Virus record (IMG/VR): IMGVR_UViG_2529292720_000008
DNA from: a virus
Lineage: Duplodnaviria > Heunggongvirae > Uroviricota > Caudoviricetes
Length of the DNA stretch: 5,912 nucleotides
Direction: 5' to 3' (one strand)
Shown here: one piece after another, positions 1,572 through 5,518 of the stretch
Position numbering within the stretch: position 1 is the stretch's first letter
Layout: each line of letters opens with the position of its first letter
Notes under the pieces: model-generated
Told to the model about the DNA's origin: nothing
The model's database searches: none
Seen by the model: only the letters and a program-made list of their open reading frames with translations
Translations under genes and position numbers: made by a program

Positions 1572-2047
1572 ATGAATACTGGATATTCTCCCGAACAAGG
1601 GCGGGGCTTCGTTCGTCCTGAAAAACAGAATCTGCAAAATTTTGCCGAAATTATTCCGGTTATTTCCGGCCTTACTGGCGGGAGTGAAACCAATATTGTT
1701 AACGCCAGAGCGTTGCAGATGTTTGATGATAAAAAGGGAGTAAATTTAACTTACACCCCTGACGGCAATCAGAATATGAGCATTATCTCTGAGTCAGGTT
1801 TCTACAAACTAATAAAAACAAAAAGCGCCCCGTTGCCGGAGCGCCTTTGTGAACAATTAACCTACTGCGCAAAAAATGAATCTGAGCAGTGGGATTATAT
1901 CAACCGTGTGGCGAAGCGCCACAATTGCCGGATAACAGGCAAAACAAAGGCCACCCGCTACGGTGGCCCCTCGACACAAGCTACACGTTATCCCCAACGC
2001 ATGAGCATCACCAACAATGCCACATTTGCGGCTGGTGGGCAATGTGA
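1572..2047 (+). other. Possible coding region of uncertain status (start of a 470-codon stop-free frame); may be a decayed gene or a frameshifted remnant
   Basis: ATG at 1572 opens a frame whose first ~120 codons look protein-like (including an SESGFYKLI segment that faintly recalls the E-x-G-L-Y-x-L-I core of Bro-N/antirepressor proteins, from memory). There is no in-frame stop until 2984, and the middle of the frame (2050-2580) is Ser/Cys/Arg-rich, antisense-like translation. No boundary can be supported. Confidence 0.2.
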
Positions 2048-2221
2048 TCAGTCAGATTTGGTTCGTTCCAAGGTTTGCAACGAGAGCTTTTTCCTGTGCT
2101 CTTTAAGGAATTTCTCAAGAGCAAAAGCACATGGCGCGAATCTTTCTGATTCATGCTCTATCTTTCTGCGCCGTCTTTTCCGTGCCGGTGATAATGTTTT
2201 GGTCAATTCTTTATCGGTCAT
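2048..2221 (-). CDS. Small basic hypothetical protein (57 aa from the second ATG; the track start at 2236 gives 62 aa)
   Basis: Minus-strand ORF with charged, protein-like composition (MTDKELTKTLSPARKRRRRKIEHESERF...), in contrast to the junk-like plus-frame translation over the same DNA. AGGA lies 7 nt upstream of the second ATG. It sits directly downstream of the leftward RHH-like gene. No family recognised. Confidence 0.25.
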   Translation of the reverse strand: MTDKELTKTLSPARKRRRRKIEHESERFAPCAFALEKFLKEHRKKLSLQTLERTKSD

Positions 2222-2278
2222 TGTGTTGTCCTGCATAGCAATGCGCCGTAATACCTTACACCACGGCGCTGGTGATGG

Positions 2279-2551
2279 TCACTCCTGCTCTTTGGCCTTG
2301 CGACGCTGGAGTTCTTCACGCGCGACGGTGATGAGTTGCCCGATCTCCTCGGCTGCTTTGACTCCGATTTTTTCCACCTGCGCCAGTGCATCGAGCGAAG
2401 AAACCAGGGGATTTTCTCCGCTTCCTTCTGCCTGGCGGCGGGCGATCTCACCGCGAACGGCTGTAATCACGAAAGCGGCTATTGTTTCCCCTTCCGTTTT
2501 CGAATTTTCCATTTCCTCGATTACATCATGGGGGAAGCGGATATTTTTCAT
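2279..2551 (-). CDS. Putative ribbon-helix-helix-like DNA-binding protein, candidate repressor of the divergent rightward operon (90 aa; alternative start at 2584 gives 101 aa)
   Basis: Minus-strand ORF whose N-terminus (MKNIRFPHDVIEEMENSKTEGETIAAFVITAVRGEIARRQ) fits a beta-strand / helix / turn / helix RHH layout, with a helical charged C-terminus. The overlapping plus-frame translation is low-complexity. It is transcribed away from the palindrome-rich region at 2585-2780. The fold call comes from pattern only. Confidence 0.45.
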   Translation of the reverse strand: MKNIRFPHDVIEEMENSKTEGETIAAFVITAVRGEIARRQAEGSGENPLVSSLDALAQVEKIGVKAAEEIGQLITVAREELQRRKAKEQE

Positions 2552-2605
2552 TTGCGATCTGCTGTTGATATTTCCTGTTGCCATCAGAATGTCCGGTTAT
2601 TTTGA

Positions 2606-2709
2606 GGTGTGCATACATTACACCAAAAGGTGTGTAAATAAAACACTTGACACTGTAGCGCACTTAAATTTAATCTGTACACACACCAATGATTGTGGTG
2701 TATGTACAG
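2606..2709. promoter_or_regulatory. Divergent control region: rightward sigma70-like promoter (-35 TTGACA 2647-2652, 16-bp spacer, -10 TTTAAT 2669-2674) flanked by two palindromes built from GGTGTG/CACACC half-sites
   Basis: Consensus -35 hexamer and a 5/6 -10 hexamer at correct spacing. Upstream inverted repeat ACACC-aaaa-GGTGT at 2620-2633. Downstream 14-bp-arm inverted repeat CTGTACACACACCA (2675-2688) / TGGTGTATGTACAG (2696-2709) with one mismatch, overlapping the predicted transcription start. Further GGTGTG copies at 2606 and 2629. Confidence 0.55.
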
Positions 2710-2780
2710 CAAAGCCCCGCAGTGCTGGAACACATGCAGGGCTTCTAACCACCAACGATAGCGAAAGTATCGAGGTAGCT

Positions 2781-2984
2781 ATGAGAAATTATACCAGACA
2801 CCCGCAAGGGCGGGACTCGTACAACCTGAATAAATACATCTGGCGTTTTATCGCCCTGAGCACGGCACAACCGCGCGTGATTACCATTGAGGCCACCAGC
2901 GAACAGGAAGCGCGTCAGCAATCTCCTGATGGCTGCGTGATGGTATTCGCTGCCCGTATTCGCCAGGGGGAACACCATGATTAA
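2781..2984 (+). CDS. Icd-like small protein (host cell division inhibitor Icd-like family, as commonly annotated in P4-like prophages), 67 aa
   Basis: ATG at 2781 preceded by GAGGT at 2772-2776. Translation MRNYTRHPQGRDSYNLNKYIWRFIALSTAQPRVITIEATSEQEARQQSPDGCVMVFAARIRQGE fits my recollection of the Icd-like pattern (W-x-F-x-A-x-S ... SE-x-EAR ... FAAR). First gene downstream of the promoter; the stop overlaps the next start. Confidence 0.55.
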   Translation: MRNYTRHPQGRDSYNLNKYIWRFIALSTAQPRVITIEATSEQEARQQSPDGCVMVFAARIRQGEHHD

Positions 2985-3186: not shown

Positions 3187-3391
3187 TCATGAAACGCACT
3201 TACCTGTAGTGCTGAATGTGCCATCAGATTATACGGGGCGCGTACTGGTGTATCTGGAAAAAGGCCGGGTTAAATGTCAGTGCCGTTTAATGGAAAACGA
3301 ATTTATTAGCACTCTTGCGGGATTTTCTGAAATGCTCACTAAATCGGGTGTTAGTGCAGACCAGTTACGCGGGGGCGATTATGCGAAATAA
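3179..3391 (+). CDS. Uncharacterised small protein, 70 aa; tandem paralog of the 2977-3186 gene
   Basis: ATG at 3179 with SD GGGGGG at 3166-3171; overlaps the upstream stop (ATGcaTAA). About one third identity to the preceding protein when aligned by eye, including conserved TG, KGRV and Cys positions. Confidence 0.6.
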   Translation: MHNHETHLPVVLNVPSDYTGRVLVYLEKGRVKCQCRLMENEFISTLAGFSEMLTKSGVSADQLRGGDYAK

Positions 3392-3599
3392 ACATGATAT
3401 TGAAGACCTGGCATTTGAAGCCCTGCACTCTGCGAAAAAAATCAGGGAAGTCGTCAATATGTGGATGAACAGCCTTAGCACCGATGAATCCGATAGCAGA
3501 GAGGAAATTCTTATTTCTTTGTTGTTAGACCTGGCAAATACACAGGTTTCTCTGACATCTGATATTGAACTCGCCGCTAAAAATCTGCCTCTGGAGTAA
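3381..3599 (+). CDS. Uncharacterised small acidic, predicted helical protein, 72 aa
   Basis: ATG at 3381 with SD GGGGG at 3371-3375; 11-nt overlap with the upstream gene. The ORF-track start at 3315 lies inside the upstream gene and lacks an RBS. No family recognised. Confidence 0.5.
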   Translation: MRNKHDIEDLAFEALHSAKKIREVVNMWMNSLSTDESDSREEILISLLLDLANTQVSLTSDIELAAKNLPLE

Positions 3600-3605
3600 A
3601 AAAAC

Positions 3606-3905
3606 ATGAAACAGAAAAATTCTGGCTTTACTGCCAGTGGTCTCCCTCGGCCTGAAATCCGCCCCGGTGATATTTTCCGGGATAACTACGGTGGCACGGT
3701 AACGATTAAAAGCGTGGCGGGGCGGTGCGTTACTTACCGCCGTGATGGGTACGGCTATGACTGCGTGATGCCTGCTTATCAGTTCCGGCGTGATTTTTCA
3801 CTGATACAGGCCACACCACGCAAACAGCCCACCAGCAACGCAAAGGCACGGGCAAATATTCAGAAAATGAAAAACATGATTAACGCATTCAGGGGCAAAA
3901 AATGA
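3606..3905 (+). CDS. Uncharacterised small basic protein, 99 aa, translationally coupled to rep
   Basis: ATG at 3606 with GGAGT upstream; its stop overlaps the rep start (ATGA at 3902-3905). Gly/Arg/Tyr-rich core (GDIFRDNYGGTVTIKSVAGRCVTYRRDGYGYDCVMPAYQFRRDF) suggests a small beta-rich domain. No family recognised. Confidence 0.5.
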   Translation: MKQKNSGFTASGLPRPEIRPGDIFRDNYGGTVTIKSVAGRCVTYRRDGYGYDCVMPAYQFRRDFSLIQATPRKQPTSNAKARANIQKMKNMINAFRGKK

Positions 3906-5317
3906 AACTGGCACCGAACTTAAAAAAACAGCCACACGACAAAATGACCGAAGTCATTATTTTTGCGGGTAGTGATGCCTGGGCGCACGCGAAACAGTGG
4001 CAGGAACAGGACGGGCGACTTGCTGGTGATAACGTCCCGCCTGTATGGCTGGGAGACAGCCAGCTTGACGAACTGGCAGACCTGAAAATTATCGACGATG
4101 GTCGCTATTGTGTCCGGCTGTACAAGGCAGGCCACATCAAGCCGTCAAATATTAATGCTATCGGGCAAAAGCTGGCGGCGGCAGGTGTACGGGATGCGAA
4201 TTATTACCCTGATGGAATGCACAGCCAGAAGCTGGAGAACTGGCACGACTACCTGCAACGGATCCGCGAACAGGCAGAGCGCGGGGAAATACTTACTGAC
4301 GAGCAATACAGCCAGCGAAAAACCACGCTACCAATGAGCATTGGATCTGCAGGGTACGACACACAGCTTGATTATGTCGTTAAGGGCGTGATTCCGGCTA
4401 ATTCATTGTGCAGCACATACGGCGCGAGCGGTTCCTATAAATCGTTCCTCGCGTGTTCCTGGGCGTGTCATGTTGCCACTGGCCGTCACTGGGGAGGCCG
4501 CAGGGTGGCGCATGGTTCGGTGATGTATGTTGTCGGTGAAGGTGGCATTGGTGTCCCCCGCCGTATCAAGGCATGGGAAATCGTTAATGATGAACGGGTG
4601 GAAAATCTGTACCTGGTAAACCGCCCGATTTTTCCGGCAGTCCCGCTTGATGTTGATGAAATGGTCATCGCTTCCCGCCAGGTTGAACGGGAAACGGGTA
4701 AACCGGTACGCATGATTATTCTTGATACGCTGGCGCGTTGCTTTGGCGGTAATGATGAAAATGACGCGCGGGATATGGGGGCGTTTATCCGTGGATGTGA
4801 CGAACTGAAACGCCGCACAGGGGCCACGGTGCTGGTGGTTCACCATTCCGGCAAGGATGAAACAAAGGGGGCGCGTGGTTCCAGTGCATTTCGTGCATCT
4901 CTGGACGCTGAATACCGTATTCGCCGTGAAGGTGCAGACAGTGAAGCCCTGGTTATCTCCTGCACAAAAATGAAGGACGCGGAGGAACTGAAAGAGGCCG
5001 CATACGATTTACGTGTGGTGGAGCTTTTTACCGACACTGACGGGGAGTTAATCACGTCGCTGGTTGTTGTGGATAAGCCGCGCCCACCCGTTGAACTGGA
5101 GCGCATCGAGGAAGCCGGGAACAAGACGGAGAATCATGCCGCGCTATGGGGCTGTATCCGTTCACGCACACAGCGCGGAGATAAATGCACTATTCCGTTG
5201 TTGCGCGATGATATGAAAAAGCTGGGGTATGAGATGAAACACTTCCGGCGCTGGCTGTACAAGCTGGAAGGTGATGGCGTTATTGCTATTGACGGTGATG
5301 ACGTGCGCCCACTGTAA
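3902..5317 (+). CDS. rep: Replication protein: RepA-like / DnaB-like RecA-fold ATPase (AAA_25-type) with an uncharacterised N-terminal ~150-aa domain, 471 aa
   Basis: Walker A GASGSYKS at nt 4421-4444, Walker B-like hydrophobic stretch with Asp (RMIILDTLA, around nt 4709-4735), and the VLVVHHSGKDETKGARGSSA motif typical of RepA-like helicase/ATPase cores. Ends immediately upstream of an iteron cluster. The alternative start at the MTEV Met (nt 3944) cannot be excluded. Confidence 0.85.
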   Translation: MKLAPNLKKQPHDKMTEVIIFAGSDAWAHAKQWQEQDGRLAGDNVPPVWLGDSQLDELADLKIIDDGRYCVRLYKAGHIKPSNINAIGQKLAAAGVRDANYYPDGMHSQKLENWHDYLQRIREQAERGEILTDEQYSQRKTTLPMSIGSAGYDTQLDYVVKGVIPANSLCSTYGASGSYKSFLACSWACHVATGRHWGGRRVAHGSVMYVVGEGGIGVPRRIKAWEIVNDERVENLYLVNRPIFPAVPLDVDEMVIASRQVERETGKPVRMIILDTLARCFGGNDENDARDMGAFIRGCDELKRRTGATVLVVHHSGKDETKGARGSSAFRASLDAEYRIRREGADSEALVISCTKMKDAEELKEAAYDLRVVELFTDTDGELITSLVVVDKPRPPVELERIEEAGNKTENHAALWGCIRSRTQRGDKCTIPLLRDDMKKLGYEMKHFRRWLYKLEGDGVIAIDGDDVRPL

Positions 5318-5518
5318 AAAGTGGGTAGTAAAAGTGGGGAGTGTGGGGAATTTAACAAAATTGAAACGTGATTCCCCACTTTCCCACCTGTATATACCCC
5401 AAAAAGTGGGGAATAAAAAACACATTGAAAAACATCACGTTAGAATCACAAAAAAAAGAAGTGGGGAGACGTTGGGTAATTTCAAAAAGTGGGTAGTAAA
5501 AGTGGGGAGCAGTGAGGA
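5316..5518. repeat. Iteron cluster, putative origin of replication: at least 8 copies of AGTGGGGA-like 8-mers in both orientations, a 26-bp perfect direct repeat (5316-5341 and 5484-5509), and an A-rich tract
   Basis: Read directly: AAAAAGTGGGTAGTAAAAGTGGGGAG occurs twice. Additional GTGGGGA / TCCCCAC copies at 5334-5340, 5342-5349, 5373-5380 (inverted), 5381-5388 (inverted variant), 5405-5412 and 5461-5467. A-rich segment at 5411-5460. Position right after rep fits a rep-ori arrangement. Confidence 0.7.

What the first reader, a model, noticed from the sequence alone, without database searches (positions are those of the whole stretch)
2048..2551. Leftward pair: RHH-like gene followed by a small basic ORF
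The gene order is reminiscent of a repressor or antitoxin with a partner, or of a two-gene maintenance/immunity cassette transcribed opposite to the replication operon. The downstream ORF is highly basic (an RKRRRRK run) and could instead be a nucleic-acid-binding peptide or a spurious ORF.
Basis: inference. Interest (0 to 1): 0.4.

Follow-up and report, generated by a model that had tools for sequence, protein, structure and literature searches.

The report
Satellite repressor operon with small partner gene
The leftward pair is a real two-gene operon of an E. coli phage satellite (PICI): a ribbon-helix-helix protein that very probably represses the satellite's replication operon, followed by a conserved 57-residue protein of unknown role that is not its toxin partner.

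Summary
The upstream gene is 2279-2584(-), 101 aa, a YlcI/YnfO-family protein with a ribbon-helix-helix (RHH) fold. The small gene is 2048-2221(-), 57 aa, net charge about +8.

The window is the left half of an E. coli phage-inducible chromosomal island: int, alpA, this pair, then a rightward Icd-like/DUF4222/RepA operon.

In 217 related loci, about 50 RHH variants each carry their own 8-12 nt motif. The motif is repeated inside and just after the rightward promoter, and again after the leftward -10. This indicates an immunity-type repressor that also regulates itself.

The small ORF lies exactly 57 nt downstream in every locus. It has its own Shine-Dalgarno sequence, a core under purifying selection (pN/pS 0.15 in frame, at least 1 in the other sense frames), and an intrinsic terminator after it.

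The same small-ORF variant pairs with 13 RHH specificities in three architectures. Elements in five other genera have the RHH gene alone. No toxin, defence or structural match was found. A toxin-antitoxin reading is therefore unlikely.

The small protein's function remains unknown. It is most likely an accessory factor carried on the repressor transcript. Ordinary in kind, moderately interesting.

The parts
2279..2584 (-). RHH gene (YlcI/YnfO family), 101 aa. It has an N-terminal strand-helix-helix DNA-binding module (about residues 12-54), a long C-terminal helix (59-100), and a basic tail RRKAKEQE.
   Evidence: NCBIfam NF041551 scores 64.2 bits against a cutoff of 30. phrog_6522 matches at 1e-48. 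The AF2 model has pLDDT 82.7. The top Foldseek PDB hits are Arc, CopG, AmrZ, MatP and KacA. RefSeq annotates the gene in a relative.
2243..2269 (-). GC-rich hairpin (GCGCCGUGGUG-UAAGG-UAUUACGGCGC) in the invariant 57-nt intercistronic spacer (2222-2278). No U tract follows it.
   Evidence: The spacer length is 57 nt in every locus examined. The hairpin is predicted in the MFE and centroid folds. The GCGCC...GGCGC core is kept in nearly all of the spacer variants listed. No clear compensatory changes were seen, so its function is inferred only.
2229..2232 (-). Shine-Dalgarno element (AGGA) of the small ORF, 7 nt upstream of the ATG at 2221.
   Evidence: Read directly from the sequence. CAGG is invariant at this position in the spacer variants listed.
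2048..2221 (-). Small ORF, 57 aa plus stop. It has a basic N-terminal arm (RKRRRRK), a conserved core EHESERFAPCAFALEKFLKE, and a variable C-terminal tail.
   Evidence: Homologues and alignment. pN/pS of the core is 0.147 in frame. phrog_21027 matches at 2e-14. AF2 predicts two helices, 12-27 and 29-56, pLDDT 73.
2005..2047 (-). Conserved 3' element (ATCACATTGCCCACCAGCCGCAAATGTGGCATTGTTGGTGATGC) between the small ORF and the terminator.
   Evidence: It is conserved in most variants. It is also present directly after an RHH gene that lacks the small ORF (L249), and in an ash-type element with no RHH gene (L248). It therefore belongs to the shared convergent terminator region, not to the small ORF.
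1938..1971 (-). Intrinsic terminator of the leftward operon: a 10-bp GC-rich stem (GGGGCCACCG...CGGGTGGCC) followed by TTTGTTTTG.
   Evidence: Found by the terminator scan. Across the commonest downstream variants listed, an equivalent terminator with a different stem sequence but the same T tract lies about 60-110 nt after the small ORF stop. A second minus-strand terminator lies at 1821-1848.
2606..2640 (.). Operator-like repeats on the leftward side. Copies of TGTAYRYACACC lie at 2606-2617 and 2629-2640. The first abuts the inferred leftward -10 (TAATGT, 2615-2620 on the minus strand).
   Evidence: Motif search and repeat search. The same position holds the type-specific motif in other RHH types. 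The promoter hexamers are inferred from alignment of the types; the consensus scan did not call them.
2647..2676 (+). Inferred rightward promoter of the Icd-like/replication operon. The -35 is TTGACA (2647-2652). The -10 is TTTAAT or TAATCT (2669-2676).
   Evidence: TTGAC(A/G) is at the same place in nearly all RHH types, with a -10-like hexamer 17 nt downstream. Inferred, not mapped.
2675..2709 (.). Palindromic operator (two inverted copies of TGTACAYACACC, 0 mismatches each), immediately downstream of the rightward -10 and covering the expected start site.
   Evidence: inverted repeat I2: 14-nt arms, 93% complementary. The equivalent copies in other types change with the RHH variant.

Best explanation
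The pair is the leftward 'maintenance' operon of a Gram-negative phage-inducible chromosomal island (PICI).

Gene 1 is a YlcI/YnfO-family ribbon-helix-helix protein. It binds type-specific repeats that lie within and just downstream of the rightward promoter of the Icd-like/DUF4222/RepA replication operon. It also binds one copy just after the -10 of its own promoter. It would thereby keep the island silent and regulate itself, as an immunity-type repressor.

Gene 2 is a genuine 57-aa, two-helix, basic protein. It is translated from its own Shine-Dalgarno sequence on the same transcript. That transcript ends at an intrinsic terminator about 77 nt after its stop codon.

The small protein is an optional, lineage-restricted add-on (Escherichia/Shigella, with a divergent form in Citrobacter). 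It rides on the repressor transcript and so should be made while the island is quiescent, in the way rexAB ride on the lambda cI transcript. It acts independently of the repressor's DNA specificity. Its own target is not known.

Shown here: gene boundaries, conservation, purifying selection, linkage, the terminator, and covariation between operator motif and RHH variant. Inferred: repression, co-transcription, timing of expression, and the small protein's independence of the RHH.
For: Context. The window holds int, alpA, the pair, then Icd-like, DUF4222 and a RepA helicase. Relatives continue with ssb, capsid, decoration protein and terS, and sit between chromosomal genes abgR and smrA. The same pair is found in the O157:H7 capsid-forming PICI.

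RHH fold and family. NF041551 scores 64 bits. AF2 gives a strand-helix-helix topology. Arc, CopG, AmrZ and MatP are the top structural neighbours, with TM 0.66 normalised to Arc and rmsd 1.8 A over 40 residues.

Repressor role. Across about 50 RHH variants, each type has its own 8-12 nt motif. It is repeated at three fixed positions: in the spacer of TTGAC(A/G)-17-(-10), directly after that -10, and directly after the leftward -10. The flanking DNA stays conserved. In the window, 4 copies cluster in 2606-2708, two of them with 0 mismatches.

Small ORF is coding. Core pN/pS is 0.147, against 1.09 and 2.07 in the other sense frames. Indels are in frame, and the start codon and SD are invariant.

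Operon structure. The gap is a constant 57 nt in the 217 loci. No terminator lies between the genes, and a terminator follows them in the variants examined.

Independence of the two genes. One small-ORF variant pairs with 13 RHH types across three architectures. RHH-only elements exist.
Against: No experiment supports any of this. DNA binding, repression and co-transcription are inferred from comparative anatomy only.

Foldseek E-values for the RHH model are all above 1, which is usual for a 45-residue domain but weak.

The promoter hexamers were not called by the consensus scan.

The window's own RHH type lacks a clear operator copy inside the promoter spacer.

Published work on E. coli PICIs attributes induction to the activator AlpA and describes no repressor (PMC6092414). 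The repressor may therefore be one layer of several.

For the small protein the explanation says where and when it is made, not what it does. The strictly invariant 57-nt spacing and its hairpin could mean a tighter functional coupling than 'independent accessory gene'.
Confidence: 0.55

Rival explanations
1. The small protein is a modulator of the island's regulatory switch. It could be a co-repressor, an anti-repressor, or a sensor that contacts the RHH tail, AlpA or a helper-phage inducer. On this view the pair works as one regulatory unit.
For: The small ORF is never seen without an RHH gene upstream (217 of 217 loci). Spacing is an invariant 57 nt with a conserved hairpin. The conserved recombination block begins within the last codons of the RHH gene (RRKAKEQE), so the tail and the small ORF travel together.
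Against: Arc-like RHH types with a different tail (RGIEPKG) pair with the same small ORF. Many functional-looking islands have the RHH gene alone. No co-variation with the RHH type was seen.
Confidence: 0.2
2. The pair is a type II toxin-antitoxin module: RHH antitoxin and autorepressor upstream, small basic toxin downstream, stabilising the island.
For: The gene order (RHH first, small partner second) and autoregulation-like operators resemble RHH-antitoxin modules. A KacA antitoxin and a MazE-family chain appear among the weak structural neighbours.
Against: No toxin, TA or defence profile matches the small protein in Pfam, NCBIfam or PADLOC. No PDB sequence or fold match was found.

The genes are 57 nt apart rather than overlapping. 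The RHH gene occurs alone in five genera and in E. coli L249. The small ORF reassorts freely with three RHH architectures, including 59-aa forms that lack the C-terminal helix.

The operators lie over the divergent replication promoter, not only over the pair's own promoter.

Three contigs carry a frameshifted RHH gene with an intact small ORF. This could be a homopolymer sequencing error.
Confidence: 0.07
3. The small protein is an arginine-rich-motif RNA-binding factor, comparable to lambda N or HK022 Nun. It would act on an RNA hairpin of the island or of the lambdoid helper phage, modulating termination or translation.
For: The window's variant has an N-terminal RKRRRRK arm in a predicted helix. 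Stable hairpins flank the gene: in the spacer, and in the 3' element plus terminators. Known helpers of these islands are lambdoid phages (PMC6092414; bioRxiv 10.1101/2022.09.08.507074).
Against: The arginine run is not conserved. Family members read SQKTNREHENMA or MSEDELQKLAFSMPEKQHEKTV in its place. The constrained part is the acidic-hydrophobic core, not the arm. There is no similarity to N or Nun. The hairpin loops are not boxB-like.
Confidence: 0.1
4. The small ORF is not a functional gene. Its conservation would reflect a DNA or RNA element, or the antisense + strand ORF 1572-2984.
For: PGAP annotates the + strand ORF across this region in some genomes and omits the small ORF in many. 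N- and C-terminal parts show relaxed pN/pS (0.64 and 0.82). The family is tiny: 9 representatives at E <= 0.001 among 1.84 billion proteins, one of them a spurious repeat protein.
Against: The core pN/pS of 0.147 is lowest in the annotated frame. The mirror antisense frame gives 0.305 and the other antisense frames 1.3-2.4. Start codon and SD are invariant, and indels are in frame. The + strand ORF is a mirror-frame artefact joined to the real Icd-like gene, and is not annotated as such in close relatives.
Confidence: 0.07

Closest known systems
P22 immI region (Mnt / Arc-Ant) and other RHH phage repressors (Arc, Mnt, CopG)
   Same: A small ribbon-helix-helix repressor is transcribed divergently from the operon it controls. 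Repeated operators overlap the promoters, and the repressor regulates itself. A candidate antisense RNA lies at the 5' end of the controlled operon, as sar RNA does in immI.
   Different: There is no sequence-level relationship beyond the fold. Here the controlled operon is a satellite replication module headed by an Icd-like gene. The RHH protein carries an extra 42-aa helical insert in the long form. A second small gene follows the repressor gene.
Stl/Rpr master repressors of Gram-positive PICIs (SaPIs)
   Same: The position and logic are the same: a leftward repressor gene between int and the rightward replication/packaging operon, divergent promoters, and many allelic specificities.
   Different: Stl proteins are larger helix-turn-helix proteins that are inactivated by binding helper-phage proteins. 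For Gram-negative PICIs the literature describes only the activator AlpA and calls the existence of a repressor unclear (PMC6092414). No derepression mechanism is known for this RHH protein.
Lambda cI-rexA-rexB (accessory genes carried on the repressor transcript)
   Same: An accessory gene sits downstream of the maintenance repressor on the same transcript. It is dispensable for repression and present only in some relatives.
   Different: RexAB is a characterised two-protein abortive-infection system. The 57-aa protein has no known activity and no similarity to Rex. This is an analogy of layout only.
YlcI (DLP12) and YnfO (Qin) of E. coli K-12, NCBIfam NF041551 / phrog_949
   Same: They share the N-terminal 42-residue module (8e-18; phrog_949 2e-20).
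   Different: From my own knowledge of the K-12 map, the K-12 genes lie next to the nohD/nohA packaging genes of defective lambdoid prophages. They are not in a divergent regulatory region. No function is published for either.
RHH-antitoxin type II toxin-antitoxin modules (e.g. ParDE, RelBE, KacAT)
   Same: The RHH gene comes first and a small partner second, with probable autoregulation.
   Different: See the membership test: no toxin domain, no obligate pairing, a 57-nt gap, free reassortment, and operators over a divergent promoter.

Membership tests
YlcI/YnfO family (NCBIfam NF041551) | Score above the curated cut-off for the N-terminal 42-residue model. | tested here: met
   64.2 bits against a cutoff of 30, E 8.2e-18, residues 9-50. 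RefSeq names the orthologue 'YlcI/YnfO family protein'.
Ribbon-helix-helix (Arc/MetJ/CopG) DNA-binding superfamily | Strand-helix-helix topology of about 45 residues. | tested here: met
   The AF2 model has an extended segment at 12-18 and helices at 19-28 and 35-54, with pLDDT 81-92 over this part.
Ribbon-helix-helix (Arc/MetJ/CopG) DNA-binding superfamily | Significant structural or sequence similarity to solved RHH proteins. | tested here: inconclusive
   The top Foldseek hits are Arc (1myl, 1par, 1bdv), CopG, AmrZ, CdbA, NikA and MatP, with target-normalised TM up to 0.69, but all E-values are above 1. The PDB profile search finds no RHH protein. No Pfam RHH family passes threshold.
Ribbon-helix-helix (Arc/MetJ/CopG) DNA-binding superfamily | Dimer that inserts a two-stranded sheet into the major groove of repeated operator half-sites. 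| not testable with these tools
   Indirect support only: type-specific repeats co-vary with the RHH variant.
Type II toxin-antitoxin module | The partner carries a recognisable toxin domain. | tested here: not met
   No Pfam, NCBIfam, PADLOC, PDB or fold match for the 57-aa protein or its 34 aligned homologues.
Type II toxin-antitoxin module | Obligate, co-evolving pair with tightly coupled (overlapping or abutting) genes. | tested here: not met
   The gap is 57 nt. The RHH gene is alone in Klebsiella, Yersinia, Serratia, Salmonella, Enterobacter and E. coli L249. One small-ORF variant pairs with 13 RHH types.
Type II toxin-antitoxin module | Toxicity of the partner and rescue by the antitoxin. 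| not testable with these tools
   Needs expression experiments.
Arginine-rich-motif antiterminators (lambda N / HK022 Nun type) | Conserved N-terminal arginine-rich motif with a cognate boxB-type hairpin. | tested here: not met
   The arginine run is present in the window but replaced by non-basic sequence in family members. No boxB-like loop was seen.
Gram-negative PICI (host element of the pair) | The sequence int, alpA, replication module with iteron origin, then a few phage late genes; about 10-15 kb at a chromosomal att site. | tested here: met
   The window has int, AlpA (2.7e-18), DUF4222 and a RepA/AAA_25 helicase. Six 13-nt iterons lie at 5316-5509. Relatives add ssb, capsid, decoration protein and terS between abgR and smrA. 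A 10.8-kb circular copy is deposited as a 'plasmid'.

The most novel reading that the evidence does not exclude
The 57-aa protein is a new kind of satellite effector, made constitutively from the repressor transcript of quiescent PICIs. It is present in about a third of complete E. coli genomes, including the O157:H7 cf-PICI and Nissle 1917. It would act on the helper phage or the host, for example by binding an RNA hairpin or a host or phage protein through its invariant ERFAPCAFALExFLK helix. That would link satellite immunity to helper sensing or exclusion.
Probability: 0.12. Interest if true: 0.7.

Novelty: new member of a known kind. Interest (0 to 1): 0.4.

Why it matters
For Gram-negative PICIs, only the activator AlpA has been described, and the existence of a master repressor is called unclear (PMC6092414). 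The comparative anatomy here nominates one. It is a swappable RHH protein with matching operators over the replication promoter, and it can be tested directly with reporter fusions and footprints. The specificity types would also give a natural set of orthogonal repressor-operator pairs.

The small ORF is widespread: its DNA block is in 1714 of 5426 complete E. coli genomes. Yet it is often unannotated, or hidden under a spurious antisense CDS that is labelled 'Icd-like protein' or 'hypothetical protein'. Correcting that annotation has practical value, even though the protein's function is unknown.

Tried and rejected
Family and structure searches for the small protein all returned nothing. 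These were Pfam, NCBIfam, PADLOC and PHROG function, the PDB sequence profile, and Foldseek against PDB and BFVD.

A profile search of 1.84 billion representative proteins found only 9 hits. One of them is a spurious eukaryotic repeat protein.

tblastn against 50,697 phage genomes found no match. The small ORF is therefore not a phage gene.

Rfam found nothing above threshold in the window. In particular there was no C4 or isrK immunity RNA, which other PICIs carry (PMC10111431).

Stop-codon read-through fusing the RHH protein to the small ORF was considered, because the two are in frame and the window's spacer is open. It was rejected: other spacer variants carry an in-frame TAG, and the RHH stop codon varies among TAA, TAG and TGA.

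A helix-hairpin-helix reading of the RHH insert rests on one weak hit (Hef, E 0.016). It conflicts with the single long helix in the AF2 model, so it is left open.

The 470-aa + strand ORF 1572-2984 was rejected as a gene. It lies in the mirror frame of both minus-strand genes and runs into the real Icd-like ORF. Close relatives are not annotated that way.

Literature searches found no functional study of YlcI/YnfO proteins or of this pair.

Full report
**What is in the window**

The 5.9-kb window is the left half of an Escherichia coli chromosomal island. From left to right it holds the following features.
- A tyrosine integrase, cut at the 5' end (19-963).
- An AlpA-family regulator (1331-1519, Pfam PF05930, 2.7e-18).
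- The leftward pair under study.
- A rightward operon: an Icd-like protein (2781-2984), two phrog_340 proteins, a small ORF (3381-3599), a DUF4222 protein and a RepA/AAA_25 helicase (3902-5317).
- Six 13-nt iterons after the helicase gene (5316-5509).

The closest genomes (97% identity) place the element between abgR and smrA. There it continues with ssb, a major capsid protein, a head decoration protein and a small terminase. This is the organisation of Gram-negative phage-inducible chromosomal islands (PICIs) described in PMC6092414 and PMC10111431. The pair lies in what the latter paper calls the dynamic zone, between the integration and replication zones.

**Checking the observation**

Both ORFs exist on the minus strand, but both starts need correcting.

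The upstream ORF runs 2279-2584 and encodes 101 aa.
- Its MAT... start is shared by relatives.
- RefSeq annotates the 101-aa form.

The downstream ORF is mechanically 62 aa (2048-2236).
- The first ATG is polymorphic in relatives.
- The second Met (2221) is invariant in 39 homologues.
- That Met follows a conserved CAGG(A) element at Shine-Dalgarno distance.

The gene is therefore 2048-2221 and encodes 57 aa: MTDKELTKTLSPARKRRRRKIEHESERFAPCAFALEKFLKEHRKKLSLQTLERTKSD. Its net charge is about +8.

**The upstream protein is a ribbon-helix-helix protein of the YlcI/YnfO family**

- NCBIfam NF041551 matches residues 9-50 at 64 bits against a cutoff of 30.
- phrog_6522 covers the whole protein.
- An AlphaFold2 model built on 42 homologues (pLDDT 82.7) shows an extended segment, helices 19-28 and 35-54, and a long helix 59-100.
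- Its best structural neighbours in the PDB are Arc, CopG, AmrZ, CdbA, NikA and MatP. The TM-score normalised to Arc is 0.66, with rmsd 1.8 A over 40 residues. All E-values exceed 1, as is common for so small a domain.
- No Pfam family reaches threshold.

I accept the fold and treat it as moderately well supported.

**Evidence that this protein is the island's repressor**

I collected 217 related loci from IMG/VR by searching with the small ORF. They carry about 50 distinct RHH proteins in three architectures.
- Long YlcI-like forms, 100-106 aa.
- Short YlcI-like forms, 59-65 aa, lacking a 42-residue helical insert.
- Arc-like forms, 43-63 aa, ending in RGIEPKG.

The DNA on both sides of the intergenic region is conserved. 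The region between the RHH start and the Icd-like leader changes with the RHH variant.

When oriented rightward, nearly every type shows the same plan.
- A -35 of TTGAC(A/G).
- A type-specific 8-12 nt motif directly inside the 17-nt spacer.
- A -10-like hexamer.
- A second copy of the motif directly after that hexamer.
- A third copy directly after the -10 of the leftward promoter.

Examples:
- TGAAACACAC with KSQLTTVRVP.
- TGTCAGCCAC with KSKKLEARVPH.
- TGTCTTACAC with KSQSVTARIAH.
- GTGCGCACA with KSAKKNIRFPH.

In the window itself, the four best copies of TGTAYRYACACC all fall in 2606-2708. Two perfect inverted copies form the palindrome 2675-2709 immediately after the rightward -10.

Operators placed within and just after a promoter, changing in step with the only variable protein nearby, are the signature of an immunity-type repressor with autoregulation. 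This is inference from comparative anatomy. No binding or repression has been shown. The consensus promoter scan did not call these hexamers.

**The small ORF is a real gene**

- It has 51 protein homologues, and 211 IMG/VR stretches encode a relative.
- The DNA block from the 3' end of the RHH gene through the small ORF occurs in 1714 of 5426 complete E. coli genomes, with up to 6 copies per genome. These include O157:H7 and Nissle 1917.
- Among 54 unique alleles, the 20-codon core (EHESERFAPCAFALEKFLKE) has pS 0.42 and pN 0.06, a ratio of 0.147.
- The ratio is 1.09 and 2.07 in the other two sense frames. It is 0.305 in the mirror antisense frame and 1.3-2.4 in the remaining antisense frames.
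- Length differences are in frame.
- The N-terminal arm (ratio 0.64) and the C-terminal tail (0.82) are much less constrained. The tail exists in at least five mosaic versions.
Some members carry SQKTNREHENMA or a non-basic N-terminus instead.
- AlphaFold2 predicts two helices, 12-27 and 29-56, with a kink at the invariant Pro-Cys (pLDDT 73).

**Operon structure**

- The small ORF starts exactly 57 nt after the RHH stop codon in all 217 loci. This holds whatever the RHH architecture, once GTG/TTG starts and three frameshifted RHH genes are allowed for.
- The spacer contains a conserved GC-rich hairpin without a U tract (2243-2269).
- A conserved 45-nt element follows the small ORF. After it comes an intrinsic terminator, at 1971-1946 plus TTTGTTTTG in the window. 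In relatives the terminator stem differs but the T tract is kept.
- This 3' module also occurs directly after an RHH gene with no small ORF (L249), and in an element with no RHH gene at all (L248). It therefore belongs to the shared convergent terminator region.
- The segment made of the spacer and the small ORF behaves like an inserted cassette.

**Is the pair a toxin-antitoxin or an obligate two-component unit?**

The evidence is against it.
- The window's small-ORF variant is found with 13 RHH specificities across all three architectures.
- Long-form RHH orthologues in Klebsiella, Yersinia, Serratia, Salmonella and Enterobacter PICIs are followed by non-coding DNA or a terminator, with no small ORF.
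- Only a Citrobacter element has a divergent 63-aa counterpart, 60 nt downstream.
- No toxin, defence or other profile matches the small protein or its homologues.
- No solved or predicted viral structure resembles it.
- It is absent from 50,697 phage genomes, and the family has only a handful of representatives among 1.84 billion proteins.

It is thus a satellite-specific, lineage-restricted protein.

**Most likely mechanism**

I commit to the following.
- The RHH protein silences the replication operon and limits its own synthesis.
- The small protein is co-transcribed with it and is therefore present while the island is quiescent.
- It is an accessory function that does not depend on which repressor it follows.

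The layout parallels lambda cI-rexAB, P22 immI (Mnt versus Arc-Ant), and the Stl/Rpr repressors of Gram-positive PICIs.

What the small protein binds is unknown. A modulator of the switch is the main rival (0.2). An arginine-arm RNA binder (0.1), a toxin (0.07) and a non-gene (0.07) are less likely.

**Relation to the literature**

[quoted passage not shown] - I found the same pair in the O157:H7 cf-PICI: an Arc-like RHH gene followed by the small ORF. There PGAP covers it with a 247-aa antisense 'hypothetical protein'.
- No paper in the library characterises YlcI/YnfO proteins or the small ORF.

**Verdict**

The repressor or immunity reading is supported. The antitoxin reading is not. The small ORF is a genuine but functionally unassigned gene.

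In kind this is a new member of a familiar arrangement. Interest is moderate, because it nominates a testable repressor for Gram-negative PICIs and exposes a widespread, frequently mis-annotated small gene.

Noticed in passing
window 2708-2795, minus strand: Candidate cis-antisense small RNA opposite the 5' UTR, RBS and start codon of the Icd-like gene. A perfect extended -10 (TGGTATAAT, plus-strand 2787-2795) lies inside codons 3-5 of that gene. It is followed by two hairpins, the second being a terminator-like hairpin (2712-2744) with a UUUGCU tail. In 22 unique relatives the terminator stem has 3 pairs with compensatory double changes. It also has many G-U pairs that would be A-C mismatches on the + strand. 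Rfam gives only a sub-threshold SymR hit (25 bits against a gathering score of 61, E 0.14).
   Followed up: partly
window 1572-2984, plus strand; also L001 13541-14953 and L247 8807-9550: A 470-aa + strand ORF is annotated by PGAP in NZ_CP024240 as 'host cell division inhibitor Icd-like protein'. It is the mirror-frame antisense of both leftward genes fused to the real 67-aa Icd-like ORF. A similar 247-aa antisense 'hypothetical protein' hides the pair in the O157:H7 cf-PICI. These are probably mis-annotations.
   Followed up: partly
window 1572-2047, plus strand: The N-terminal part of the long + ORF has a weak Bro-N/anti-repressor match over residues 51-91 only (Pfam E 0.013; phrog_130 1e-5). 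It contains two minus-strand terminators (1946-1971 and 1821-1848). Some relatives have an intact 192-aa gene beginning MNKNIAVTGKG... in the equivalent position, and others have alpA directly. It is probably a decayed Bro-N gene.
   Followed up: partly
window 5316-5509: Six direct copies of a 13-nt iteron (AAAAGTGGG(G/T)AG), plus inverted copies, lie just after the RepA helicase gene. This is the expected PICI replication origin.
   Followed up: no
L255 (NZ_CP148328.1, 10,790 bp, circular): A complete related island (int, alpA, unannotated small ORF at 2170-2346, YlcI/YnfO gene at 2404-2709, Icd-like, primase, protease-capsid fusion) is deposited as a circular 'plasmid'. This suggests an excised episomal PICI caught in an assembly.
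   Followed up: no
RHH residues 55-96 (window about 2297-2422, minus strand): The 42-aa insert that distinguishes long from short RHH forms gives a weak profile hit to the helix-hairpin-helix region of Hef nuclease (E 0.016, motif L..VEKIG.KAAEEI). AlphaFold2, however, models it as part of one long helix. Its role is unresolved; oligomerisation or a second DNA contact are possibilities.
   Followed up: no
L189 (IMG/VR locus), upstream of the small ORF: One relative has an extra 47-aa hydrophobic ORF (MQQKIYWFGSLFLYVFLLGNC...) inserted between the RHH gene and a remnant of the RHH tail, followed by the spacer and the small ORF. This shows that the junction is a site where small cassettes are gained.
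   Followed up: no
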